From: Candidatus Poribacteria bacterium
GTDB lineage: Bacteria; Poribacteria; WGA-4E; WGA-3G
Assembly (NCBI GenBank): GCA_965205015.1
Contig: OZ242029.1
Span: 455,937-519,936 of the forward strand
Length of the DNA: 64,000 bases
Reading direction: 5' to 3'
How positions within the stretch are numbered: position 1 is the first letter of the stretch; the number at the start of each line of letters is the position of its first letter. This document shows, one piece after another, positions 2,307 through 21,942 of this stretch. The notes beneath the pieces were generated by a model that searched no databases, was not told the origin of the DNA, and was given only the letters and a program-made list of their open reading frames with translations. Made by a program: the position numbers and the translations under genes.

Positions 2307-2882
2307 TTAAATTCCTATGCTACCGGCCTCTGTGAAAATGTGCTGAACCGGCACATCCCACGCCTGTGGGAACGTATCTTCTACAAGCTGTATCTCATAC
2401 GCCAATCCGATCGCCACAGCGTGTGGGCACTTCACGAGAAATCGGTCGTAGAAACCTTTGCCGTATCCGAGACGATACCCATTACGATCAAAAGCGACGC
2501 CGGGAACCACAATGAGTTGAAGGTGTCCGGTCGGAAAGATTGGGCATGCCTCGCTCGGTTCCAACATACCGTAGGAATGACGGACTAACTCTGTTTTCAG
2601 ATTTTGAATCCGTCGCGGTATAAGTGCCAGCTGTTCTGTATCTACAACAGGAGCGCAAACCTGTTTGCCTGAATCGAGTAACGCCTCAAGCAAACTGAGG
2701 GTTTCAACCTCGCTTCTCATATTCAGGTAGAGCATCACGGCGTCGAAACCCTCACGCCGTATCCAATCCGCAGCGGAATCAACGATACGCTGGCTGAGCC
2801 GTGTTCGCGCTTCTGGGGTGAGTGCCTCGCGACGGTGGAGTGTTTCCGCGCGGACGCGTTCCCGTTCGATCGCGGTCTTCAT
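2307..2882 (-). CDS. ygfA: 5-formyltetrahydrofolate cyclo-ligase (MTHFS)
   Basis: 191 aa with a conserved GYGKGFYDR motif near the C-terminus and overall MTHFS length and organisation. Confidence 0.85.
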   Translation of the reverse strand: MKTAIERERVRAETLHRREALTPEARTRLSQRIVDSAADWIRREGFDAVMLYLNMRSEVETLSLLEALLDSGKQVCAPVVDTEQLALIPRRIQNLKTELVRHSYGMLEPSEACPIFPTGHLQLIVVPGVAFDRNGYRLGYGKGFYDRFLVKCPHAVAIGLAYEIQLVEDTFPQAWDVPVQHIFTEAGSIGI

Positions 2883-2887
2883 CGTTT

Positions 2888-3175
2888 CTATTTCTGATAC
2901 CGGACTTTTCCAGCAACTTCCACGGTATCAACAATCGCCATGATCACAGCGTCGACCGGTTTGTTGCCCGTCACTGCGGTTTGACGCGCCGAACTGCCGG
3001 TGGCAACGAGAACAATTTCGCCGATACCTGCCCCGACTGCATCCACAGCAACAGTATATTGCCGATCAACCTCTCCGTTGAGATCCACATCTTGGACAAC
3101 CATCAGTTTGCTCCCGATTAATTTCTCATCTTTCTGCGTCGCGACGATTGTCCCGGTAACTTTTCCCAGGGTCAT
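2888..3175 (-). CDS. EutN/CcmL/PduN-family bacterial microcompartment vertex protein
   Basis: 95-aa protein (MTLGKVTGTIVATQKDEKLIGSKLMVVQ...GAGIGEIVLVATGSSAR) matching the EutN/CcmL pentamer fold. It lies 6 bp upstream of MTHFS on the same strand. Confidence 0.75.
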   Translation of the reverse strand: MTLGKVTGTIVATQKDEKLIGSKLMVVQDVDLNGEVDRQYTVAVDAVGAGIGEIVLVATGSSARQTAVTGNKPVDAVIMAIVDTVEVAGKVRYQK

Positions 3176-3403
3176 TTAATAAATACCTTTCGTTTCAGTA
3201 TAAGAATCGCGAGTGAAACTCGCTCCTACAAGAAGAATTTCTTTCAGCATCACCGGATTTGAGAGCGTCTACTTTACAAGAGTCGTAGTAATTATACACG
3301 GAATCTGCTGAAATTTCAAGCCTCAATCTATATTACCCAAAAAGTGCATCCGAAAATGTGTATAAGCGGTAGAACTGAAATGCCCATAGACCTCGGCAGG
3401 TGA

Positions 3404-3432
3404 AATTGACAAACGATCGACAATGTGCTAAA
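3404..3432 (+). promoter_or_regulatory. Putative sigma70-type promoter (TTGACA - 17 bp - TAAACT) upstream of the FAD oxidoreductase gene
   Basis: TTGACA is followed after a 17-nt spacer by TAAACT in the divergent intergenic region. A GGAGG SD sits at 3470-3474. Confidence 0.35.
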
Positions 3433-3443
3433 CTATCTTTATA

Positions 3444-4598
3444 GTGTTGTTTCGATTCTCTGGTAAAGTGGAGGATAACTTGAGCCGAAATCATGCCGAT
3501 GTCATCATTATCGGTGCGGGCATTATCGGATGCAACATCGCCTACGATCTCGCCAAACGGAACGTGAAATCGTTAGTGATTGATAAAGCATCCGCCGTTG
3601 GAACAGAAGCCTCATGGGCAGGTGCAGGAATTTTAACCTCACACGCCTCAACAGATGCGCCGTACCCAACCTTGTGTCGAGCGAGCCTTGCACGCTATCC
3701 GGCGTTAGCCGAAGAACTCCGAGCAGAAACCCTGATAGATATTGAGTTGATCCAATCCGGAACGCTGTCAGTATTCTTCAATCCAGCGGAAGCGGCAGGA
3801 TTAATCGGTCTCGCAGATCGGCGTGTGAAACGCGGCTTCTCAACCGAAGTTCTGACGGCGGAACAGGCATGGCAGTTGGAACCTGCGCTCTCAAAATCTA
3901 TTGCCGGTGCTGTTCTGTTCCCCGAAGACGCGCAAGTCCGTAATCCGAAGATGGTGACCGCACTCGCCAAGGGTGCAGCAAAACTCGGGGCGCAATTTCA
4001 AGTGGGCAATCCTGTTGCCGATTTTATCCGAGTGAGTGAGGGCGATAGAGAGCACGTTGTCGGTGTCGTCGTTAACAGTGAAACCTATTACGCCGACACG
4101 TTCGTGATCGCAGCAGGCTGCTGGACAGGGACGCTTACGGCTCAACTGGATGTCCCAATTCAGGTTGAACCCGCGAAAGGCCAGATCGTCCTCGTTGAAG
4201 CGATGCCACCGCCGTTCGAGCGAACGATTGATGGACTTGGCATCTACATCGTACCGAGAGCCGACGGTAAGATTCTACTCGGAGCGACGGTCGAATTTGT
4301 CGGTTATGACAAGACCGCCACTGTGGAGGGTGCTAAGCAGATGATCGACGCAGGAATTGCCATCGCGCCGCAACTCGCGCACAGTACTTTCGTGCAAACA
4401 TGGGCAGGTTTACGGCCCCATGCCAAAAAAGGACCGCTTCTCGGTTACCTACCGGGGTATGACAACGTCGTTTTGGCATCAGGGCATTTCAAAAATGGTA
4501 TTCTCCTCGCGCCGATTACAGGACACCTTATCGCTGAACTGATCACCACAGGACAGACATCGTTGCCCTTGGAACCTTTTCAGCCAACGACGGTGTAA
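3444..4598 (+). CDS. FAD-dependent oxidoreductase, DAO family (glycine / D-amino-acid oxidase-like)
   Basis: A DVIIIGAGIIGCNIAYDL Rossmann dinucleotide-binding motif lies close to the N-terminus, and length is about 370 aa. The true start may be TTG at about 3480, preceded by GGAGG. Confidence 0.8.
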   Translation: MLFRFSGKVEDNLSRNHADVIIIGAGIIGCNIAYDLAKRNVKSLVIDKASAVGTEASWAGAGILTSHASTDAPYPTLCRASLARYPALAEELRAETLIDIELIQSGTLSVFFNPAEAAGLIGLADRRVKRGFSTEVLTAEQAWQLEPALSKSIAGAVLFPEDAQVRNPKMVTALAKGAAKLGAQFQVGNPVADFIRVSEGDREHVVGVVVNSETYYADTFVIAAGCWTGTLTAQLDVPIQVEPAKGQIVLVEAMPPPFERTIDGLGIYIVPRADGKILLGATVEFVGYDKTATVEGAKQMIDAGIAIAPQLAHSTFVQTWAGLRPHAKKGPLLGYLPGYDNVVLASGHFKNGILLAPITGHLIAELITTGQTSLPLEPFQPTTV

Positions 4599-13257: not shown

Positions 13258-13287
13258 TGATTTTTCGTTACGTATGTGTTATACTGT
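13258..13287 (+). promoter_or_regulatory. Putative sigma70 promoter (TTGATT - 17 bp - TATACT)
   Basis: TTGATTTTTCGTTACGTATGTGTTATACT lies immediately upstream of the small membrane protein gene. Confidence 0.3.
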
Positions 13288-13332
13288 AAATATCTGAACC
13301 TTAAGCGGAAAGGAAAATTAAAGAAGCGGTCT

Positions 13333-13788
13333 ATGGAAGAGAAACGGGGATCCTTATTTACCGTCCGAGACGCAGAAAGTGCCATCATTACCTATACGGT
13401 ATTAGGACTCCTCTACATTATCGGGATATGTCTCTACGAACTTGTTGCCGGATGGAACGGCGTGCTGCAGCTGTTAGCGATGTTAGACGCAACGTTCCCG
13501 GTATTCAATCGGACTGCAATTGCGTTCATTGTCTTTAAAGAAGGAGTGGATATCATGCTAAGGCGTTTTAACGAATGGCGTGCTGAACATGCACAAAGCC
13601 TTGCAAAAGCGAAAGAACAAGGGATCGAACAAGGGATCGAACAAGGGATCGAACAAGGAATTGAGCAGGGGCGCGCAGAAGCATACCAAGCCATTGCGGC
13701 TTGGAATAGACGCAGACTCGCAGCCGAGGCGAAAGGTATTCCTTTCAATGAACCTCCCCCGTCACAGAACGGAAGCGAACACGGATAG
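13333..13788 (+). CDS. Small membrane protein with a (GIEQ)n tandem repeat
   Basis: A hydrophobic helix (AIITYTVLGLLYIIGICLYELVAGW) is followed by EQGIEQGIEQGIEQGIEQG. No recognisable family. The start is taken at MEEKRGS. Confidence 0.45.
   Translation: MEEKRGSLFTVRDAESAIITYTVLGLLYIIGICLYELVAGWNGVLQLLAMLDATFPVFNRTAIAFIVFKEGVDIMLRRFNEWRAEHAQSLAKAKEQGIEQGIEQGIEQGIEQGRAEAYQAIAAWNRRRLAAEAKGIPFNEPPPSQNGSEHG
13611..13673 (+). repeat. 12-bp coding minisatellite (GAACAAGGGATC)x~5
   Basis: aaagaacaagggatcgaacaagggatcgaacaagggatcgaacaaggaattgagcagggg is read directly from the sequence. Confidence 0.85.
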
Positions 13789-13806: not shown

Positions 13807-14850
13807 ATGACAGCATTAAAAGAACTTCGCGTATCCAACGATGCGATGAACGATCCGGAAGAATTGCGTCACCGGATCTCGGAAGAAGGATATGTTTTCT
13901 TCAAGAAGCTGCAAGATCCCGACAAACTCTGGGCGTTGCGGCGAGAAATGCTAACAACGATGCAGGAAGGCGGTTGGCTCATCGCAGGGACCGACCCCCT
14001 GGACGGTATCGCCGATATATCCACCCAGTGTACCGAAGGCGACCCGGAATACACGGATGTGTACCATGAGGTGTATAAGTTAGAGGCGTTTCACCGTTCC
14101 GGGCATTGGCACGAAGTCGTCGATATGGTCGAGAAGATTGTCGGTAGAGAGGTGCTACCGCATCCACAGAAGATTGCGCGCCTCTGGTTTCCTCAGTACA
14201 CGGCGCACACCACACCGATACACCAAGACTTCGTTCACTTCCAAGGGAATTTCCAGACCTATACCTGCTGGGCACCCATCGGGGATTGTCCCATAGAATT
14301 GGGAGGCTTGGCAGTCCTACCCGGTTCCCATAAAGTCAATAAGGTCATGGAACACCACTTCTCACTCGGGGCTGGGAGTTTGTGCGTTAATGAGGACGAG
14401 TTGTCGGGTGAATGGCACTCCACGAACTATGAGGTTGGCGATACGCTCATTTTTCCTGCTTTGACGATTCACAAAGCATTGCCAAATCTAACCGAGGATC
14501 GGCTCCGCGTCTCGCTCGACAACCGCTATCAGGCTGCCGATGACCCGATCGCTGAGCACATGCTTGAACCGCACCTGAACATTTTCAACTCCCTCACGTG
14601 GGAACATGTCTACCGCAATTGGGAGTCCGATGAACTGAAGTATTATTGGAAAGACCGGGATCTGACGGTTCTCCCAAGGGATTTCAGTTACGGAAACAAA
14701 GGGTTTGAGGAAGCGTTGGAGTTGGCAAGCAACGGAGATGAACGCGCCATCCTACACTTAAACCGAGCGGTCAAGCGCGATGCCACGACCGAATTGGCAC
14801 AGCGAGCGGCGGCAATCCTGCAAGAAATCAACGCCGGGACTGTTCAATAA
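13807..14850 (+). CDS. Phytanoyl-CoA dioxygenase (PhyH) family Fe(II)/2-oxoglutarate oxygenase
   Basis: An HxD...H facial triad (IHQDFVH ... TIHKALPN) within the double-stranded beta-helix PhyH arrangement. Confidence 0.75.
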   Translation: MTALKELRVSNDAMNDPEELRHRISEEGYVFFKKLQDPDKLWALRREMLTTMQEGGWLIAGTDPLDGIADISTQCTEGDPEYTDVYHEVYKLEAFHRSGHWHEVVDMVEKIVGREVLPHPQKIARLWFPQYTAHTTPIHQDFVHFQGNFQTYTCWAPIGDCPIELGGLAVLPGSHKVNKVMEHHFSLGAGSLCVNEDELSGEWHSTNYEVGDTLIFPALTIHKALPNLTEDRLRVSLDNRYQAADDPIAEHMLEPHLNIFNSLTWEHVYRNWESDELKYYWKDRDLTVLPRDFSYGNKGFEEALELASNGDERAILHLNRAVKRDATTELAQRAAAILQEINAGTVQ

Positions 14851-15158
14851 TGGAGTTCCATTACCAAGACATCGTGCCGTGGGGGAGATCGTTTGACGAA
14901 TATTTGGGTATGTTTAATCTCTCCGAGGACGACTTGGCGCGGGACCTTGTTGATGTAGGCGGCGGTCCCGCGTCGTTCAATTCCTTGATGCACCAGCGCG
15001 GCACGCCGATCGTCTCCGTGGATCCGATTTATCGGTATTCTGAGGCAGAATTGCGCCAGCGAATTCAGGACACCTACGACGATGTCATCGCCCAAGCCCA
15101 ACAGAATCAAGGTGATAGCACCCACTGCCTAAAGGAGACCGGGGCTTCGGTTTCGTAG
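14850..15158 (+). pseudogene. 5' fragment of a class I SAM-methyltransferase gene interrupted by IS insertions
   Basis: Motif I (LVDVGGGPASF) is present but the ORF stops after 102 aa. The matching 3' part (motif II PFPDGHFDLVLSAHLL) resumes at 17914 beyond two inserted elements. The last ~13 codons are probably IS-derived. Confidence 0.5.
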
Positions 15159-15330
15159 CAACTGCGGTTTTCTCTAAGAGTCCACCGTCTAACTGTTGCT
15201 CCACCCGCGGGCATTTCCCTGATACTCTGAAATAGGTGAGTATCAGGCATATCGTCAAGTGACGGCTATCCCTGCCCGCAAAATGTTTATTGCAGCGTTG
15301 ATGTCTCGGTCATGGTGAGAACCACAATCG
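15117..15330 (-). ncRNA. Putative TnpB right-end RNA (reRNA / omega-RNA)
   Basis: By analogy with characterised TnpB systems, the guide RNA derives from the 3' end of tnpB plus the element's right end. Nothing is verified structurally. Confidence 0.25.
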
Positions 15331-16367
15331 GGACACGTCCACTGCCTATCTGAAAGGGTTAGGGTTTCGTTGTGAAAACCACAATCACTGCACGGCTTTG
15401 TCGTAGCAGTCCATTGTCCGACTTGTTTCAAAAGACGCTTATGCTTGCTACATTTATACTTCAATATCTCAACAAACTGGTAGAAAGCAAGATCAGAGAC
15501 TTTACGTCCCCAAAGCCGTTTCATGCCCTCAAGATTCAAGGTTTCAATGGCGATGGTATCGAACCTTTTACAAAGTTCAGTGGCAAGCTGCCAATGAAAA
15601 TCTTTGCGTTGATTCGTGATTTTCCGATAGAGGCGTGCGAGTTGTCGAACACAGCGCCACCAGCCATTAGAACCTTTTACTTTACGAGAAAGCGATTTGT
15701 TGAGGGTTCGCAATTTGTTCAAGGAGTGTTTCAAAGGTTGTGGGTGTTGTTTCTTTTCACCCGTGCTCAGCGTCAAAAATGCGTCTTTCATACCGAAGTC
15801 CGCCCCAACGCTTTCACCTGTTGTCGGCAGACGTTTCATATCCGTGTAGTCCGTGGTTATACAAAGCCAATAATCACCGCAGTTATCACGCTTTACCGTG
15901 ATATATCTAATAAACCCGTGCCACTGGCGGTGTTTGTGAAAAGTGTAAGGCATGCGGTCAAATCGCCATTTACCGTTTTCCCATTTACAGAAGGTCAGTG
16001 TAATCCGATTATTTTTCAGTTTCCAACCTGCCTGACCGGGAAAGGTAACAGACTTAAACTTATGCCGTTTCTTAATTTTCGGTCTGCCACCCAGTTTCTT
16101 GAAAAAACGAACGTATGCTTTGTCAATACGTCTCAATTCCTGCTGAACCGCTTGACTCGGCAAGGACCTCCAATGTGGGTGTGTTGTCCGCTTGAGTTCT
16201 TTAAAGTGGCTATCCATAGCGTTATAGTTCGCATACGGCAGCCCGTCTTTATACCTTTGACGGTGCCACCTATGGAAGTATTCATGCACTTGCCACATAT
16301 CGTCAAGCATGTTGCCAATGCGGATACAATTCGATTGATCGCCAAACTTATATTTATACGTTTTCAT
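15255..16367 (-). CDS. tnpB: TnpB (IS200/IS605 OrfB; RuvC-like RNA-guided endonuclease)
   Basis: 370 aa with RuvC-I GADFGMKD, RuvC-II IAIETLNLEGM, a zinc finger CSDCG...CPDCG and RuvC-III HDRDINAAINI. The antisense 355-aa ORF is shadow. Confidence 0.9.
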   Translation of the reverse strand: MKTYKYKFGDQSNCIRIGNMLDDMWQVHEYFHRWHRQRYKDGLPYANYNAMDSHFKELKRTTHPHWRSLPSQAVQQELRRIDKAYVRFFKKLGGRPKIKKRHKFKSVTFPGQAGWKLKNNRITLTFCKWENGKWRFDRMPYTFHKHRQWHGFIRYITVKRDNCGDYWLCITTDYTDMKRLPTTGESVGADFGMKDAFLTLSTGEKKQHPQPLKHSLNKLRTLNKSLSRKVKGSNGWWRCVRQLARLYRKITNQRKDFHWQLATELCKRFDTIAIETLNLEGMKRLWGRKVSDLAFYQFVEILKYKCSKHKRLLKQVGQWTATTKPCSDCGFHNETLTLSDRQWTCPDCGSHHDRDINAAINILRAGIAVT

Positions 16368-16549
16368 GGACTATCAAGTATCAAGTCTTTAACCCCTGTT
16401 CAGTGGGTAGGCAGACACACAATCAAGCGATTGTGCTGAACACGTCTGCCAACTTGATGCTTTAATTATACTACATTTTTGACTAAATGTCAAATCTTTT
16501 TCGACAACAAAACCTAATGCCCGTCTACATCCCGCAAGCTAAAGCATGG

Positions 16550-17913
16550 GGTCACTTACCCCCATTTTTTTTCGAGAGTAGATTGTAGTTGATGTAGTCA
16601 GGTTTTTCTGTGAGAAAGTCAGTCAGTGAGTGGGTCCGAAAAGTGGATCCCCTCTGGCACCTATCTCGGTGAAAAAGGAGATAAGAAAGTGTTGGTTCCA
16701 TAAGTCGGTGAGCACGCGTTTGATAATAGTAATAACAGAAAAAGTTTTTCTGTTATTACTATTATATGCCCTCTGCCAATGCGTAGAGGCGACCTTCTCG
16801 TAACTGATAAACAGCAATCCATAAGCGAGGCAGGCACATAACCAAAGGACCTCCAGACGCGCTTGTGTCGGTTTTTTCAAGACGAGTTTACCAAATCCGA
16901 AGCACGACTTTATATCTCGAAACCCGTGTTCAATCTGCATGCGGCGTTTGTAGCAGTGATGTATCTGATGTCCACTGAGGCGATTGGAGATAAGATACAT
17001 CGGGTCTTTGAAGGTCTCATCTCTGAGGATATAGAGTTGAAGCGGTATCTGCTCCTGCGCCTGATAAAGGATATGCCGATACCAGCCCGCTTCGAGGTCA
17101 TCAAGTTTCTTCAGACTCCCATCATGCCGGATACCGACATTTCTCGCAACACGCATCACGAACGGGATATCCCGTGCCTTGAGAAACTTGATGACGTATC
17201 GCGCACGCCCAAAACCACGGTCAAACACCAGAACAGGTCGTTGTTGATGCCGCGACACCACCCCTAAAGCCTCTTGATAAACATGGACACAGAAGTATTG
17301 GATAATCTCATTATGACTCTTATAGATACCCTCGTGAAGCTGGTGATCGCTATAGATGAACCAAAAGACAGGGATCGCACGATGCCGAAACGGGATCGAA
17401 ACAACAAGGGCTTTCCACCCGGCAATCAGAGACGTCTCATCAACGAGCAAATACAGATGAGCACCCGCATCCTTGAAAAACCAACCCACAACCGACACGA
17501 ACCACGCTTCTTTGAGCGCATCAATCGGCAGTGGGGTGTCAAGGAAACGCAGAAACCTTTTCTGTTTCGACTTCTCCCGCTTGACGACGAGCGACAAACG
17601 CGACGCAACTTCATTGATCCGAAACGTCGGGGCAACACTGATCGCTATCAAGACCAATACCAGATTCCGAAAAACCGGTTTTTTCATACCAACAGACTTG
17701 AAGATTTCTCCAAAACGTGTTATCATCGTTTCTGGATTTACCCGTTTTGGGTATCTCTTTTTCATAAAATACCTCCTTACATGTTTTGTAAAATGCGTTT
17801 ACAAACAGTTGCTGTAAGGAGGTATTTTATCATAAACCCACTGAGTTTCTCACACTTTTTACAACTAAAACCTTTCACCACAAACCTTCAGAAAAAAATG
17901 GGGGTAAGTGACA
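16550..17913 (-). mobile_element. IS4-family insertion sequence with 21-bp terminal inverted repeats and a 10-bp target-site duplication
   Basis: IR-L is GTCACTTACCCCCATTTTTTT (16550-16570) and its reverse complement is at 17893-17913. The direct repeat AAAGCATGGG occurs at 16540-16549 and 17914-17923. Confidence 0.75.
16623..17765 (-). CDS. IS4-family DDE transposase
   Basis: A DDE triad is spread across LLVDETSL, VFDRGF and RMQIEHGFRDIKS (a YREK-like motif), and length is 380 aa. Confidence 0.85.
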   Translation of the reverse strand: MKKRYPKRVNPETMITRFGEIFKSVGMKKPVFRNLVLVLIAISVAPTFRINEVASRLSLVVKREKSKQKRFLRFLDTPLPIDALKEAWFVSVVGWFFKDAGAHLYLLVDETSLIAGWKALVVSIPFRHRAIPVFWFIYSDHQLHEGIYKSHNEIIQYFCVHVYQEALGVVSRHQQRPVLVFDRGFGRARYVIKFLKARDIPFVMRVARNVGIRHDGSLKKLDDLEAGWYRHILYQAQEQIPLQLYILRDETFKDPMYLISNRLSGHQIHHCYKRRMQIEHGFRDIKSCFGFGKLVLKKPTQARLEVLWLCACLAYGLLFISYEKVASTHWQRAYNSNNRKTFSVITIIKRVLTDLWNQHFLISFFTEIGARGDPLFGPTH

Positions 17914-18362
17914 AAGCATGGGGTCTTGACGGGAAGATTGATAAATTCGTCTGGACGCACATCTTATCTGTCGATGAATTGGCGGAAATCAGGATGCAGG
18001 CGATGGAGGCGTTCTGCCGAGACTTTGAAAACGGTAAGCAACACGGACGCTATATAGACGCATCACTCCCCAATTTACCCTTCCCCGACGGTCATTTCGA
18101 CCTCGTGCTCTCCGCACATCTGCTTTTCTTTTACTCCGCCAACAGAGATTTAGCGTTCCATCTCAATGCGATTCGGGAACTCCTTCGTATCGGAACTGAG
18201 GTGAGAATCTTCCCGATTGTTGATGTCAACAGCAACCCTTCGCCCTTTTTGTCACCTGTTATTGATGAACTGGAAAAAGACCGGATTGCTTGCTCAGTGG
18301 AGCGTGTTCCCTACCATTTTCAGAAAACCGGGAATGAGATGCTACGGTTAAAGTCGTGCTGA
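17914..18362 (+). pseudogene. 3' fragment of the IS-interrupted SAM-methyltransferase gene
   Basis: KAWGLDGK...PFPDGHFDLVLSAHLLFFYS...LRIGTEVRIFP (motifs II and III). Reading frame resumes directly after IR-R of the IS4 element. The upstream part of the 17274 ORF is antisense to the transposase. Confidence 0.5.
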
Positions 18363-18378
18363 TTGTCTGACTCACAGA

Positions 18379-19305
18379 CTACCACTTCTGTGTCGGTGTT
18401 TCGGAGAGGTCTTTGACGAATTCGTAGGTCCAATCCACGGTCCGATACCCGCAGTTGCTATAAAAGAGGAACGCTCGGTGGTTATCCCAAGCAGTGCTAA
18501 TCGCCGCATGCCGGTATCCGACTTTGTGCATCTCTTGCAGCGCGTATTGGAGCAGGTAACGCCCCAAACCCTGTCCCTGAAAATCGTCCTCAATACCGAG
18601 CCAAACGGTATGCAGCCAGGCTTGTGCATCGGTATCGTTTGAGAACTCACCCCCACAGAGGGATTCACAGATGCCAACCTGCTCCCCGTTTTGGTGGGCG
18701 AGCACAGTGCAGTTCGGGAATTGCCCACGTCCATCCTGCCACTCGACAGAAAGCGTTACCGGTAGACTCGAAGGGACTGGCGTAACGGAATAATCCTTCC
18801 AATCCAAAAAGACCTCGCCAGCAGAACGATGGTATCCGTTATATCCGAGGAGACCCTGAACGTGATCAAGTGCGTCCGATAGATAAGCGTGTTCAAAGTG
18901 ATAAAAGCGGTATCGGCAATCTTGTGGGAAAGCGAAAATTCGGGAAACGTTAAATGTTTTCAGATAGGCTTCGGCTTTTTCAAGCACGGCTTGTCCAATA
19001 CGCCGCGCCCCGCGTGCGTAGGCGAAGAACCGAATAACACCTATGTCCTCTTCTCTATTATCCCCGATCTGACCGATACCGACGTGGATAAACGCCTGCA
19101 CTGCACCGTTCGCCATTGCAACAAAGGCAGCTTCGGAGTCGAGCCCACCCTCCTTCTTATCGGCTTTACCGGTGGCAACCCCGCGTATCGCAGTAGCCAA
19201 TTCTTCCGCTTTCACCGGATAGCACTTCGGCACATTGGCGGTCATACGGTTGTAAAATTGGGTTAAGGGCGCTTGCATGTCGGGTGTATATTGAAGAATA
19301 TCCAT
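18379..19305 (-). CDS. GNAT-family N-acetyltransferase (two GNAT-like halves)
   Basis: The C-terminal half carries acetyl-CoA motif A (QGQGLGRYLLQYALQEMHKVG). Confidence 0.7.
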   Translation of the reverse strand: MDILQYTPDMQAPLTQFYNRMTANVPKCYPVKAEELATAIRGVATGKADKKEGGLDSEAAFVAMANGAVQAFIHVGIGQIGDNREEDIGVIRFFAYARGARRIGQAVLEKAEAYLKTFNVSRIFAFPQDCRYRFYHFEHAYLSDALDHVQGLLGYNGYHRSAGEVFLDWKDYSVTPVPSSLPVTLSVEWQDGRGQFPNCTVLAHQNGEQVGICESLCGGEFSNDTDAQAWLHTVWLGIEDDFQGQGLGRYLLQYALQEMHKVGYRHAAISTAWDNHRAFLFYSNCGYRTVDWTYEFVKDLSETPTQKW

Positions 19306-19314
19306 CCATTTCTC

Positions 19315-21942
19315 CTAACGTTTCTCGACCCGGAAACTGGCATCCAACGCCTTTTCAACTCGGACTTGCGATTCTTCAAGGTGCGCAAAACTGTAATCGT
19401 CAAGGTTACCTCTGGCATTTTGAAGTACGCGCTGTATCTTACCCCTGATTTGTCCGAGATGGAGACGTGCAAGCGATCGCGCATCTTCAGGCGTGCCACT
19501 GTCGGCTTCCAACACCAGTTTGATGAGTTGCTTCAAGTGCTCACGCTGCAAACCGCGACGGAAACTGGAGATGAACGCATCTGAATTCGACCACTGCTTC
19601 GCACCCGCATCCCTCCCGAGTTCGACCCAGACTGCATCCGTAATGCCTGAAAAGAGTTCTGGCAGTGTGAACGCCTCCTCACCCTTAGGGAACTTAAGTT
19701 CAGCGTCCTGAACGCGGGACAGAACCGAGGGATAAAGCATGCGTTCCAAGATGAGGGTTTGATTGCGCAGAATAACATCATGCACCGGATAATCGAAACG
19801 TGTAGAGGTCCAACTATCTCCGCCCCAATCACTCCAACGGGTAATTGCCAGACTATTGAGGAGTTCGGGCGAGAAACTGAAGGCTTTATCTGAAAGGGCA
19901 TATTCCTTGATGAATTGGAGTGCCTCGCGTTGTTTCGCTGCTGGCACAGGCACAAACGGTAGACGCCCATTCTCATCACCCCGATGATCGCGATGGTGAT
20001 ACTGCCCACCGATGTATCGGCTTGCGAGATACATTGTGAAACCGTGTTCATACAGCAGACTCCCAAAAGCACGCCTGACCCGCTGATAGCCCATCCCTTC
20101 CTTCGCAACTTTGTCGGCAATCTTATCCCAGAGTCCCACAACGACCTCGCGTCGTTGCTTAGCAAACGCAAGCGGATCATCACCGAGGTCCCACCGATTT
20201 ACCAGTGGATCGAGGTCTCTGAAGCGGTACCCATAAGCGTCTTCATCTGTACCATAAGTGAGTTCTGATGATGCAACACGGGAAGCGATCTCACCTAACG
20301 CTTTCAATTCACCTTCGGGTTTGCTGGCATCAATGGGTTTATAGGCGTACTCGACCACCCAGTAATCCCAAGGTCCGATCGTCTTTGTATAGTAATCCCC
20401 CTGTTCCTGACCTTCCGGTGCGATATTCACGGCATCGTATTCCATAACGGAGCCGATAAGTGCTTCGCCCTTCTTTTTGTTCAAGTCGTCAAGAGAGAAG
20501 ATCGTACTCGCTTTAAAGTTGTGGCGGAATCCCAACGTATGTCCGACTTCGTGCATCGTTAACGTCTTGAGTGCCTCCCCAATGAACTCCTCCGGGAGCT
20601 CACCGTCTTCGTCAGCCAAACCCCGTGCCTGCAAGACACTTGCCATAAAGCCCATCTGCCGTGCTAATCCGGATGCGATCTGACATTGGAAGTGTGAAGA
20701 GTGGTCCATCGGGTGGTCGCGTTCATGTGCTACCTCATCAAAGAACGTCGTATACTCGCGCTGCCAGTACCGGATCCAACTTTCACCGATAAGGATATCG
20801 GCATCCAAGATCTGTCCCGTCAACGGGTTCACGCGAGAGGGACCGATCGCGAACCCCGCGCCAACCATCCAACGAATCGTATTGTACCGCGCATCTTCGG
20901 GGTCCCAGTCCTCATGGTCTTGCTGAATCCGCGCTTCAATCGCATCGGCAAAGCCTATTTTTTCAAACGCCTTGTTCCATTCCAGAATCCCCTGTCGGAC
21001 ATAGGGACGGTAGCGATGCGGTACGGTTTTCTCAATGTAGAAGATGATCGGTGCTTTTGGGGGTGAAAGTTTCGCATCTTTGTCGGCTTTCTCCAAATGC
21101 CAGCGGTTGACATACCGGATAAAAGGGGCATCACTGGTTTTAGACGAATAGTCTTTGACCGCCGTCATAAAATGTCCGAGGCGATCATCAGCCAATCGGG
21201 GACGATAATTGTTCTCTGGAAGTCCAGCGAGACTGTAGTGCAGCGTCAACTGGATCCCACGACTGTCCGGAATGGTACTCATATTCCTTTGGGAACTGTA
21301 GACAGCATTGACTTTTAACTCAACGTTCTTCGGGAACGCCTTGACTGCTCCCCACGTACTCCGCGTTTTGTCGAAGCGGGCATCAGATGCAATACGGCGT
21401 GCCAAAGGCGGTAGGTCGGATATGAAAACCGGAGAGATGTTCACCAGCACGCTCTTCCGTTGCGGGTGGATGCTTTCAATCTTGAGGGAGAACAGCACGG
21501 AGTCGTTGTGCCCTAAGTCAACCGCTTCTGCAATCGGTGTCCCTTTGTCCGCACGGAAACGCACATTTTTTCGCACCAGATGCACCTTGTCCCCGACACG
21601 CCGCCAGACGAGCATCCACTCCTCCAGCGTCATCCCTGAAAGGAGGAATCCTTGCCCCAGACCGCGCGCAACGCTAATCATGCACAGAAAGGGCTTGTCC
21701 AACTGGGAGGGTTGAATTTCGCAATAGAGGTTCTCTTTTTTCTGGTACAGTTTGAAAAAGCCCTCGTAACTTTTACTGTCCTCGGTCACCTTTGAAAAAT
21801 CTTCAAACTCTTTCTTCTTTTTTGCGGGTGCTTCCTGTGTCGTCGGTTTTGCGGGTTGTGTCGCTTCCTGAGCAGATACCGAAAAGCAAAAAACCCCTAT
21901 TAGAATTAGACAGATCCAGAAAGTCAATTGATATCGCATCAT
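19315..21942 (-). CDS. Secreted zinc-dependent metalloprotease (DUF5117/DUF4953-type)
   Basis: A signal peptide, an HEXXH motif (MHEVGHTLGFRHNF), length 875 aa and overall organisation matching the Bacteroidetes-type zinc metalloprotease family. Confidence 0.8.
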   Translation of the reverse strand: MMRYQLTFWICLILIGVFCFSVSAQEATQPAKPTTQEAPAKKKKEFEDFSKVTEDSKSYEGFFKLYQKKENLYCEIQPSQLDKPFLCMISVARGLGQGFLLSGMTLEEWMLVWRRVGDKVHLVRKNVRFRADKGTPIAEAVDLGHNDSVLFSLKIESIHPQRKSVLVNISPVFISDLPPLARRIASDARFDKTRSTWGAVKAFPKNVELKVNAVYSSQRNMSTIPDSRGIQLTLHYSLAGLPENNYRPRLADDRLGHFMTAVKDYSSKTSDAPFIRYVNRWHLEKADKDAKLSPPKAPIIFYIEKTVPHRYRPYVRQGILEWNKAFEKIGFADAIEARIQQDHEDWDPEDARYNTIRWMVGAGFAIGPSRVNPLTGQILDADILIGESWIRYWQREYTTFFDEVAHERDHPMDHSSHFQCQIASGLARQMGFMASVLQARGLADEDGELPEEFIGEALKTLTMHEVGHTLGFRHNFKASTIFSLDDLNKKKGEALIGSVMEYDAVNIAPEGQEQGDYYTKTIGPWDYWVVEYAYKPIDASKPEGELKALGEIASRVASSELTYGTDEDAYGYRFRDLDPLVNRWDLGDDPLAFAKQRREVVVGLWDKIADKVAKEGMGYQRVRRAFGSLLYEHGFTMYLASRYIGGQYHHRDHRGDENGRLPFVPVPAAKQREALQFIKEYALSDKAFSFSPELLNSLAITRWSDWGGDSWTSTRFDYPVHDVILRNQTLILERMLYPSVLSRVQDAELKFPKGEEAFTLPELFSGITDAVWVELGRDAGAKQWSNSDAFISSFRRGLQREHLKQLIKLVLEADSGTPEDARSLARLHLGQIRGKIQRVLQNARGNLDDYSFAHLEESQVRVEKALDASFRVEKR

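What the first reader, a model, noticed from the sequence alone, without database searches (positions are those of the whole stretch)
14850..18362. One methyltransferase gene split by two different mobile elements (TnpB/IS605-like and IS4-family) inserted side by side
MTase motif I (LVDVGGGPASF) lies at 14850-15158 and motifs II/III (PFPDGHFDLVLSAHLL) at 17914-18362. Between them sit a tnpB-only element (~15117-16539) and an IS4-family element (16550-17913). The IS4 element has perfect 21-bp inverted repeats and an AAAGCATGGG direct duplication at both ends, which is a fresh-looking insertion signature. Splicing out 15117-16539 and 16550-17923 appears to restore a continuous QNQGD|KAWGLDGK reading frame. 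This documents OMEGA nuclease mobility and recent IS activity in this genome.
Basis: seen in the sequence. Interest (0 to 1): 0.6.

Follow-up and report, generated by a model that had tools for sequence, protein, structure and literature searches.

The report
Nested insertion sequences splitting a methyltransferase gene
A Poribacteria methyltransferase gene was broken once, by a TnpB-only transposon of the IS200/IS605 family, and an IS4-family element later jumped into that transposon's left end; this is ordinary nested transposon decay, not two side-by-side hits on the gene.

Summary
The sequence features are real. The MTase is split. The IS4-like element (16551-17912) has perfect 21-bp inverted repeats and a 10-bp AAAGCATGGG duplication. 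A catalytically intact tnpB lies at 15255-16367 (minus strand).

The 11 extra residues (GDKAWGLDGKI, 33 nt) are absent from all eight orthologs aligned. They are the tips of the TnpB element: 5 nt of its right end and 28 nt of its left end.

About 80 independent copies in Poribacteria genomes share exactly these ends: TTAT/TTAC | CAATCTTCCCG...GGGTGCTATCAC. So one 1457-bp TnpB-only element inserted 3' of TTAT in the MTase and now spans 15112-17940. The IS4 element sits nested in its left-end hairpin region.

A 98-99% identical metagenome contig (L001) carries the same TnpB insertion without IS4 and with one copy of the duplicated target. IS4 therefore arrived later and is polymorphic between strains. 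Deleting 15112-17940 gives a gapless 227-aa MTase, 93% identical to its best ortholog.

Both ends of the TnpB element now look defective: the left end is split and the right-end hairpin is mutated. Low interest; new members of known kinds.

The parts
14850..15111 (+). MTase N-terminal fragment (codons 1-87 plus the first base of codon 88; carries motif I, VDVGGGPASF)
   Evidence: Aligns without gaps to the 227-aa Poribacteria orthologs up to ...AQAQQNQ.
15092..15111 (-). Flank abutting the right end. This is the predicted omega-RNA guide / target sequence, CTTGATTCTGTTGGGCTTGG on the tnpB strand.
   Evidence: Position inferred from the right-end boundary and from the known architecture of IS200/IS605 TnpB systems (PMC8612924). 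Expression was not tested.
15112..17940 (-). Composite tnpB-only IS200/IS605-family element: 2829 bp = 1457-bp element + 1362-bp nested IS + 10-bp duplication
   Evidence: Homology to about 80 independent Poribacteria copies starts and stops exactly at these tips. The orthologous empty site is in L002.
15112..15254 (-). Right end and omega-RNA-like scaffold downstream of tnpB. The right-end hairpin region is 15121-15144.
   Evidence: RNAalifold on 42 copies gives 44 pairs, 14 with compensatory changes. The window copy (and L001) alone has a 3-nt insertion, CCCCGGTCTCC, and the hairpin is no longer predicted to form.
15255..16367 (-). tnpB ORF, 370 aa, intact
   Evidence: Pfam and NCBIfam matches. 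Aligns to ISDra2 TnpB (8bf8) at E=1.4e-40. The RuvC residues D190/E275/D355 and the CxxC...CxxC motif are conserved.
16368..16550 (-). Proximal part of the left end: inner hairpin about 16531-16550, and the 3' arm of the outer stem, GACGGG, at 16520-16525
   Evidence: Conserved in family copies. DNA fold of the reconstituted left end.
16541..16550 (.). Target-site duplication copy 1 (AAAGCATGGG)
   Evidence: family D2. Present as a single copy in L001.
16551..17912 (-). IS4-family insertion sequence, 1362 bp, with 21-bp perfect inverted repeats at 16551-16571 and 17892-17912
   Evidence: (pair I2). The independent copy in L084/L085 aligns to exactly these termini. Absent from L001.
16623..17765 (-). 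DDE transposase ORF, 380 aa
   Evidence: Pfam DDE_Tnp_1, E=2.6e-15. Best NCBIfam match is the IS4 family, 95.5 bits, below the cutoff of 152. The Y-x2-R-x3-E-x6-K motif, YKRRMQIEHGFRDIK, is read directly from the translation.
17913..17922 (.). Target-site duplication copy 2 (AAAGCATGGG)
   Evidence: family D2.
17913..17940 (-). Distal 28-nt tip of the TnpB element's left end (CAATCTTCCCGTCAAGACCCCATGCTTT on the tnpB strand), cut off from the rest of the left end by IS4
   Evidence: Contiguous with the rest of the left end in L001 and in about 50 other copies.
17941..17944 (-). TTAT insertion target and presumed TAM (ATAA on the + strand), abutting the left end
   Evidence: 47 of 52 left-end flanks in the family are TTAT (36) or TTAC (11). 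TTAT is also present at the empty site in L002.
17941..18362 (+). MTase C-terminal fragment (completes codon 88, D, and runs DKFVWTH... to the stop; carries PFPDGHFDLVLSAHLL)

Best explanation
Proposed history:
1. A 227-aa class I SAM-dependent methyltransferase gene of a Candidatus Poribacteria bacterium was inactivated by one insertion of a 1457-bp tnpA-less (IS1341-type) IS200/IS605-family element.
2. The element lies on the minus strand, with its left end abutting the tetranucleotide TTAT. It made no target duplication, as expected for single-strand 'peel-and-paste' transposition by a Y1 TnpA supplied in trans.
3. Later, an IS4-family DDE element (1362 bp) inserted by cut-and-paste into the left end of that element. 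It duplicated 10 bp of the left-end hairpin's 5' arm and loop.

Consequences:
- IS4 separates the left-end cleavage site and the outer-stem arm from the rest of the left end by 1.37 kb.
- The right-end hairpin also carries a disruptive 3-nt insertion.
- The TnpB element is therefore most likely locked in place, even though tnpB itself is still intact.
- By analogy with ISDra2, its omega-RNA would guide TnpB to TTAT followed by CTTGATTCTGTTGGGC..., which is the empty MTase allele.

Shown here: the element boundaries, the nesting, the order of events, the target motif, the intact catalytic residues and the conserved RNA structure.
Inferred: TnpA supplied in trans, guide function and immobility.
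For: - Alignment A1 places an 11-aa insert, GDKAWGLDGKI, that all eight orthologs aligned lack.
- **True restoration.** Deleting 15112-17940 gives a 227-aa protein 93.4% identical to P0001 with no gap.
- **Element boundaries.** BLAST of the IS4-deleted element against 80 Poribacteria tnpB loci shows homology running from the predicted left-end tip (within a few nt) to the right-end tip, reference positions about 194-197 to 1657-1658. The termini are conserved: TTAY|CAATCTTCCCGYCAAGACCCCATGCTTTAGC... and ...TGGGTGCTATCAC|variable flank.
- **Order of events.** L001 (98-99% identical) is colinear over 4512 nt once IS4 and one duplication copy are removed. It holds the TnpB element in the same site with an unbroken left end.
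- **Empty site for the TnpB element.** L002 has the intact MTase and TTAT at the junction.
- **IS4 boundaries.** A second copy with its own 12-bp duplication confirms the termini.
- **TnpB integrity.** D190/E275/D355 are conserved against ISDra2 TnpB.
- **Omega-RNA-like structure.** 14 covarying pairs.
- **Right-end hairpin.** Lost in the window copy.
Against: - No tnpA was found in the 64-kb window.
- Omega-RNA expression and the TAM are not demonstrated, and no Rfam family matches.
- L001 and the window are metagenome assemblies. Strain mixtures could blur which cells carry IS4.
- The right-end hairpin variant might still be tolerated by a cognate TnpA.
Confidence: 0.9

Rival explanations
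1. Two independent insertions hit the MTase coding sequence side by side: a TnpB element at 15117-16539 and IS4 at 16550-17913. AAAGCATGGG would then be MTase sequence.
For: Removing those intervals leaves an open 238-aa frame. The duplication translates as K-A-W-G, in frame.
Against: The 11 extra residues are missing from all eight orthologs aligned, and 103 of the 120 top orthologs are 227 aa. The 28 nt around and beyond the duplication are the conserved left-end tip of about 50 other copies, which sit in unrelated flanks.
Confidence: 0.02
2. IS4 inserted first. The TnpB element arrived later next to it, or L001 lost IS4 by precise excision.
For: Either order can generate a direct repeat flanking IS4. 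The TTAT target is not affected by IS4.
Against: The IS4 duplication consists of TnpB-element left-end sequence, so the left end had to be there first. L001 has the TnpB element with an unbroken left end and a single copy of the 10-mer. Precise excision of a DDE IS that also removes one duplication copy is rare (established knowledge).
Confidence: 0.03
3. Assembly artefact. The IS4 or TnpB copy was placed here by misassembly of repeated elements in a metagenome-assembled genome.
For: The TnpB family has at least 5-6 copies per Poribacteria genome, and repeats are prone to misassembly.
Against: There is an exact 10-bp duplication at perfect inverted-repeat termini. Both MTase halves are colinear with orthologs. 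An independent assembly (L001) shows the same TnpB junctions.
Confidence: 0.04

Closest known systems
IS200/IS605 family, IS1341-type (tnpB-only) elements, with IS608 / ISDra2 as mechanistic models
   Same: - TnpB with a RuvC D-E-D triad and zinc finger.
- No terminal inverted repeats and no target duplication.
- Subterminal imperfect hairpins at the left and right ends.
- Left end abuts a fixed tetranucleotide, TTAT/TTAC here. IS608 uses TTAC and ISDra2 uses TTGAT (my recollection of the IS200/IS605 literature; ISDra2 TTGAT is in PMC8612924).
- A structured RNA region between the tnpB 3' end and the right end.
   Different: - Only about 30-35% identity-level similarity to ISDra2 TnpB (E=1e-40).
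- No tnpA in the element.
- This copy has a mutated right-end hairpin and a left end split by another IS.
- The omega-RNA matches no Rfam family.
IS4 family (DDE_Tnp_1 transposases with the YREK motif)
   Same: - DDE_Tnp_1 domain.
- Y-x2-R-x3-E-x6-K motif.
- 21-bp terminal inverted repeats.
- Target duplications of 10-12 bp.
- A single transposase ORF of about 380 aa in a 1.36-kb element.
- A 5' hairpin that can sequester the ribosome-binding site, reminiscent of IS10/IS50 fold-back inhibition (from my knowledge of those systems).
   Different: The score is below NCBIfam's curated IS4 cutoffs (95.5 against 152 bits), so this is a divergent, unnamed member. Only two insertion sites are known.
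Nested or 'IS-in-IS' insertions in symbiont genomes
   Same: One mobile element is disrupted by another inside a pseudogenised host gene. IS expansion in host-associated bacteria is well known.
   Different: Nothing mechanistically different. There is no evidence that the IS4 element targets TnpB left ends: 0 of 80 other loci carry it, and the second copy lies in an unrelated target.

Membership tests
IS200/IS605 family (tnpB-only, IS1341 type) | TnpB protein with OrfB_IS605 and zinc-ribbon domains and an intact RuvC D-E-D triad | tested here: met
   Pfam matches at 80.6 and 76.1 bits. NCBIfam guided_TnpB at 230 bits, above the cutoff of 100. D190/E275/D355 align to D191/E278/D361 of ISDra2 TnpB.
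IS200/IS605 family (tnpB-only, IS1341 type) | Left end abuts a conserved 4-5 nt target; no target-site duplication; no terminal inverted repeats | tested here: met
   47 of 52 left-end flanks are TTAT or TTAC. Right-end flanks are unconserved. The ancestral junction CAAG|ATAA carries no duplication.
IS200/IS605 family (tnpB-only, IS1341 type) | Subterminal imperfect hairpins at the left and right ends | tested here: met
   Met for the family: the right-end hairpin covaries (AACC/GGTT, TACC/GGTA, ACGC/GCGT, CGCC/GGCG), and the left-end fold is predicted. The window's own right-end hairpin is disrupted.
IS200/IS605 family (tnpB-only, IS1341 type) | Y1 (HUH) TnpA transposase that mobilises the element | tested here: inconclusive
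A truncated HUH tnpA lies next to a family tnpB in L044. A genome-wide search was not possible.
IS200/IS605 family (tnpB-only, IS1341 type) | Omega-RNA encoded at the tnpB 3' end / right end, with its guide read from the flank | tested here: inconclusive
   A conserved structure with 14 compensatory pairs is present. There is no Rfam match. Transcription and guide use are not testable here.
IS4 family | DDE_Tnp_1 transposase with the Y-x2-R-x3-E-x6-K signature | tested here: met
   Pfam DDE_Tnp_1 at 57.1 bits, above the cutoff of 23. YKRRMQIEHGFRDIK is read in the translation.
IS4 family | Terminal inverted repeats and a 9-13 bp target duplication | tested here: met
   21-bp perfect inverted repeats and a 10-bp duplication. 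The second copy has a 12-bp duplication.
IS4 family | Score above NCBIfam's curated IS4 equivalog cutoff | tested here: not met
   transpos_IS4_2 scores 95.5 bits against a cutoff of 152, and transpos_IS4_1 scores 45.3 against 115. IS4 is the best-scoring family, but this is a divergent member.
Class I SAM-dependent methyltransferase (Methyltransf_11) | Pfam domain above gathering score, and full-length colinearity with annotated orthologs | tested here: met
   Methyltransf_11 at 31.5 bits, above 21.2. The restored 227-aa protein is 93.4% identical to P0001. Orthologs are named class I SAM-dependent methyltransferase by NCBI.

The most novel reading that the evidence does not exclude
The TnpB element together with short flanks (24 nt on the left-end side, 148 nt on the right-end side) is nearly identical between the window and L001: 2 substitutions in about 1600 nt. 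The adjoining MTase/GNAT DNA differs by 4-8%, and more distant flanks by about 0.75%. This could be a natural footprint of the element being copied into a divergent allele by break-induced gene conversion, that is, TnpB/omega-RNA homing, rather than simple vertical inheritance.
Probability: 0.12. Interest if true: 0.5.

Novelty: new member of a known kind. Interest (0 to 1): 0.22.

Why it matters
- **Annotation.** The case shows how an in-frame remnant of transposon ends (33 nt) can mimic a 'restored' gene. Element boundaries should be set from other copies and from orthologous empty sites, not from an open frame.
- **TnpB family resource.** It defines the ends, the TTAY target and presumed TAM, and a covarying omega-RNA-like structure for an abundant TnpB family in Poribacteria. 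There are at least 229 hits in species-representative genomes and at least 5-6 copies per genome. This could help genome-editing prospecting or studies of IS dynamics in sponge symbionts.
- **Biology.** Otherwise it is ordinary gene decay by mobile elements.

Tried and rejected
- **Rfam.** An E-value scan of the region and a gathering-threshold scan of the whole window gave no omega-RNA or other family. The only hits were spurious miRNA matches caused by IS4 hairpins.
- **Exact-product look-ups.** The IS4 transposase and the 102-aa MTase N-terminal ORF returned nothing, so the window's own source contig could not be retrieved.
- **IS4 targeting TnpB left ends.** Rejected. No IS4 inverted repeat occurs in the 82 loci fetched by then, and the only other copy sits in an unrelated 12-bp target.
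- **13-bp duplication.** Rejected. The extra GTC belongs to the IS inverted repeat, which the L084 termini confirm.
- **Left-end flank regex.** A hand-written regex matched nothing. It was replaced by fuzzy matching.
- **Literature.** A search for Poribacteria plus TnpB found nothing.
- **Not run.** Structure prediction and the large profile searches were skipped because sequence evidence was decisive.
Full report
**Observation**

- An MTase N-terminal ORF starts at 14850, and a C-terminal part ends at 18362.
- tnpB lies at 15255-16367 on the minus strand. It matches Pfam OrfB_IS605 and Cas12f1-like_TNB and NCBIfam guided_TnpB at 230 bits against a cutoff of 100.
- A DDE_Tnp_1 transposase ORF lies at 16623-17765 on the minus strand.
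- It sits inside an element with perfect 21-bp inverted repeats at 16551-16571 and 17892-17912. The element is flanked by AAAGCATGGG at 16541-16550 and 17913-17922. The inverted-repeat sequence has no chance matches in shuffles.
- The direct repeat appears to be 13 nt long only because the IS starts with GTC and the right flank also continues GTC.

**The 'restored' frame is not the gene**

- A search of that product found 1760 homologs at E <= 0.001. Of the 120 best, 103 are exactly 227 aa, and every source name given is Candidatus Poribacteria.
- In alignment A1 the window product has an 11-residue insert, GDKAWGLDGKI, between ...QNQ and DKFVWTH.... All eight orthologs aligned lack it.
- Those 33 nt are 15112-15116, 16541-16550 and 17923-17940.
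- Removing 15112-17940 instead yields a 684-nt ORF. Its 227-aa product aligns position for position with P0001 (93.4% identical), P0002 and P0003.
- The ancestral junction is CAGAATCAAG|ATAAATTC, reading Q-N-Q|D-K-F.

**The 33 nt are transposon ends**

- I fetched 80 loci encoding 78-90% identical TnpB proteins, all from Poribacteria genomes. In total 229 stretches encoded relatives, and several genomes contribute 5-6 of the top 80.
- I BLASTed the window element, with IS4 and one duplication copy deleted in silico, against these loci. Homology repeatedly begins at reference position about 194-197 and ends at 1657-1658. Those positions are the predicted tips, and the flanks are unrelated.
- The left end reads TTAT|CAATCTTCCCG(Y)CAAGACCCCATGCTTTAGCTTGCGGGATGTAG(R)CGGGC. 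The right end reads ...CCGAAGCCCC-NNNN-TTTA-NNNN-(G/T)TGGGTGCTATCAC|.
- The left flank is TTAT in 36 and TTAC in 11 of 52 copies. The right flank shows no conservation.
AAAGCATGGG is the reverse complement of CCCATGCTTT, which forms the 5' arm and loop of the left-end hairpin.
- The element occupies 15112-17940 on the minus strand: 1457 bp of its own, plus the 1362-bp IS, plus the 10-bp duplication.
- The empty site in L002 (intact MTase P0001) retains TTAT at the junction.

**Order of events**

- An exact-product look-up of TnpB returned contig L001 (ENA ERZ23495174).
- After removing IS4 and one duplication copy from the window, L001 and the window are colinear over 4512 nt with 55 substitutions and no indels.
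- L001 has the TnpB element at the same MTase position. Its left end is continuous and it holds a single copy of the 10-mer, with one substitution (GACCCTATGCTTT).
- The TnpB insertion is therefore shared and older. The IS4 insertion is specific to the window's strain and younger.
- A second, 87% identical copy of the IS in JGI metagenome contigs (L084/L085) aligns to exactly 16551-17912. It is flanked by a 12-bp duplication, AATTCAACATAC, in an unrelated sequence. This fixes the IS termini and argues against specific targeting of TnpB left ends. None of the 82 loci fetched by then contained the IS inverted repeat.

**How it works**

*TnpB and its ends*
- The TnpB protein aligns to ISDra2 TnpB (PDB 8bf8/8exa) at E=1.4e-40. 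D190, E275 and D355 match the catalytic D191, E278 and D361, and both CxxC pairs are present.
- Downstream of tnpB, 42 family copies share a structure of 44 predicted pairs, 14 of them with compensatory changes. This includes the terminal right-end hairpin. It is consistent with an omega-RNA scaffold, although no Rfam model matches.
- In characterised IS200/IS605 systems, TnpA excises and inserts single-stranded DNA 3' of a short target next to the left end. TnpB/omega-RNA cuts the TAM-plus-flank sequence of the vacated site, which favours retention of the transposon (PMC8612924; PMC10055086).
- By that analogy, I infer that this element inserted 3' of TTAT using a TnpA supplied in trans. Its guide would read CTTGATTCTGTTGGGC..., the reverse complement of 15111 downward.
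One family locus, L044, has a truncated HUH tnpA next to tnpB.

*Likely immobilisation*
- The IS4 insertion separates the left-end tip from the inner hairpin and the 3' arm of the outer stem. The tip carries the cleavage site and the 5' arm of the covarying outer stem (CCCGTC, 17928-17933). The 3' arm lies at 16520-16525.
- The right-end hairpin of the window copy, shared with L001, carries a 3-nt insertion unique among the 42 aligned copies. That hairpin is no longer predicted to form.
- I therefore consider the element probably immobile, although tnpB is intact.

*IS4 element*
- It has the IS4-family YREK signature (YKRRMQIEHGFRDIK) and IS4 is its best NCBIfam family, but the score is below the curated cutoff.
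- It is best called a divergent IS4-family member that moves by DDE cut-and-paste and makes 10-12-bp duplications.

**Comparison and novelty**

- Both elements are unnamed members of well-known families, and nested IS insertions in pseudogenes are commonplace.
- No paper in the held library mentions Poribacteria together with TnpB.
- The useful outcomes are three. The anatomy is corrected to one hit on the gene, with IS4 nested. An abundant Poribacteria TnpB family now has defined ends, a TTAY target and RNA structure. And the locus supplies an IS4 insertion that is polymorphic between strains.

**Residual oddity**

Substitutions between L001 and the window are strongly clustered.

| L001 interval | Content | Substitutions |
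|---|---|---|
| 2801-4400 | Element plus about 145 nt of right-end flank | 2 |
| 2201-2800 | MTase C-terminal part / GNAT end | 26 |
| 4401-4512 | Last 112 nt of homology | 9 |

- Beyond L001 4512 (window 14856) homology stops altogether.
- This mosaic indicates recombination at the locus.
- It could reflect element-centred gene conversion (homing), but ordinary recombination or a chimeric metagenome consensus is at least as likely.

**Verdict**

It is wrong on architecture and on the restored frame. Interest is low.

Noticed in passing
window 17758-17836 (minus strand; 5' region of the IS4 transposase gene): A 24-bp inverted repeat (92% complementary) places the Shine-Dalgarno AAGGAGG and the ATG start of the transposase in the 3' arm of a very stable RNA hairpin (-34.1 kcal/mol, z = -7.8). 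The 5' arm lies 31 nt upstream. This resembles IS10/IS50 'fold-back' inhibition of translation from read-through transcripts. An inverted self-match at the same place exists in the L084/L085 copy. This hairpin caused the spurious miRNA Rfam hits.
   Followed up: partly
window 16723-16765: A perfect 21+21-nt palindrome (ATAATAGTAATAACAGAAAAA / TTTTTCTGTTATTACTATTAT) lies inside the 3' end of the IS4 transposase ORF. It is conserved (97.7%) in the 87%-identical copy L084/L085. Its function is unknown; it may be a terminator or a protein-binding site.
   Followed up: no
L001 1-4512 versus window 14856-20739: Substitutions between the two strains are mosaic. There are about 0.14% within the TnpB element and its immediate flanks, 4-8% in the adjoining MTase fragments and GNAT 3' end, and about 0.75% further out. 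This suggests recombination tracts centred on the locus.
   Followed up: partly
window about 14850 (MTase start); L001 4513 onward; L002 3371-3976: The gene upstream of the MTase differs in three related genomes. In the window, PhyH abuts the MTase directly (TAATG overlap). In L002 an extra 201-aa ORF sits between PhyH and the MTase. In L001 a 633-aa HATPase_c_3 gene is there instead. The MTase lies at the edge of a variable region.
   Followed up: partly
window 17274-18362 (+): A mechanical 362-aa ORF runs antisense through the IS4 element, across its end and the left-end tip, and in frame into the MTase C-terminal fragment. It is a likely source of a spurious 'fusion' gene call.
   Followed up: no
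window 13615-13658: A perfect 12-nt tandem repeat (GAACAAGGGATC x3.7) encodes (EQGI)n inside a 170-aa ORF (13276-13788) upstream of the PhyH gene.
   Followed up: no
L044 2002-2316; L049 2293-3790 and 4645-6102; L033 and L042 about 3683-3795: Variants within the TnpB family. L044 has a truncated HUH tnpA (104 aa) immediately upstream of tnpB. L049 has two family elements about 850 bp apart. L033 and L042 have an insertion of about 80-110 nt within the omega-RNA/right-end region.
   Followed up: no
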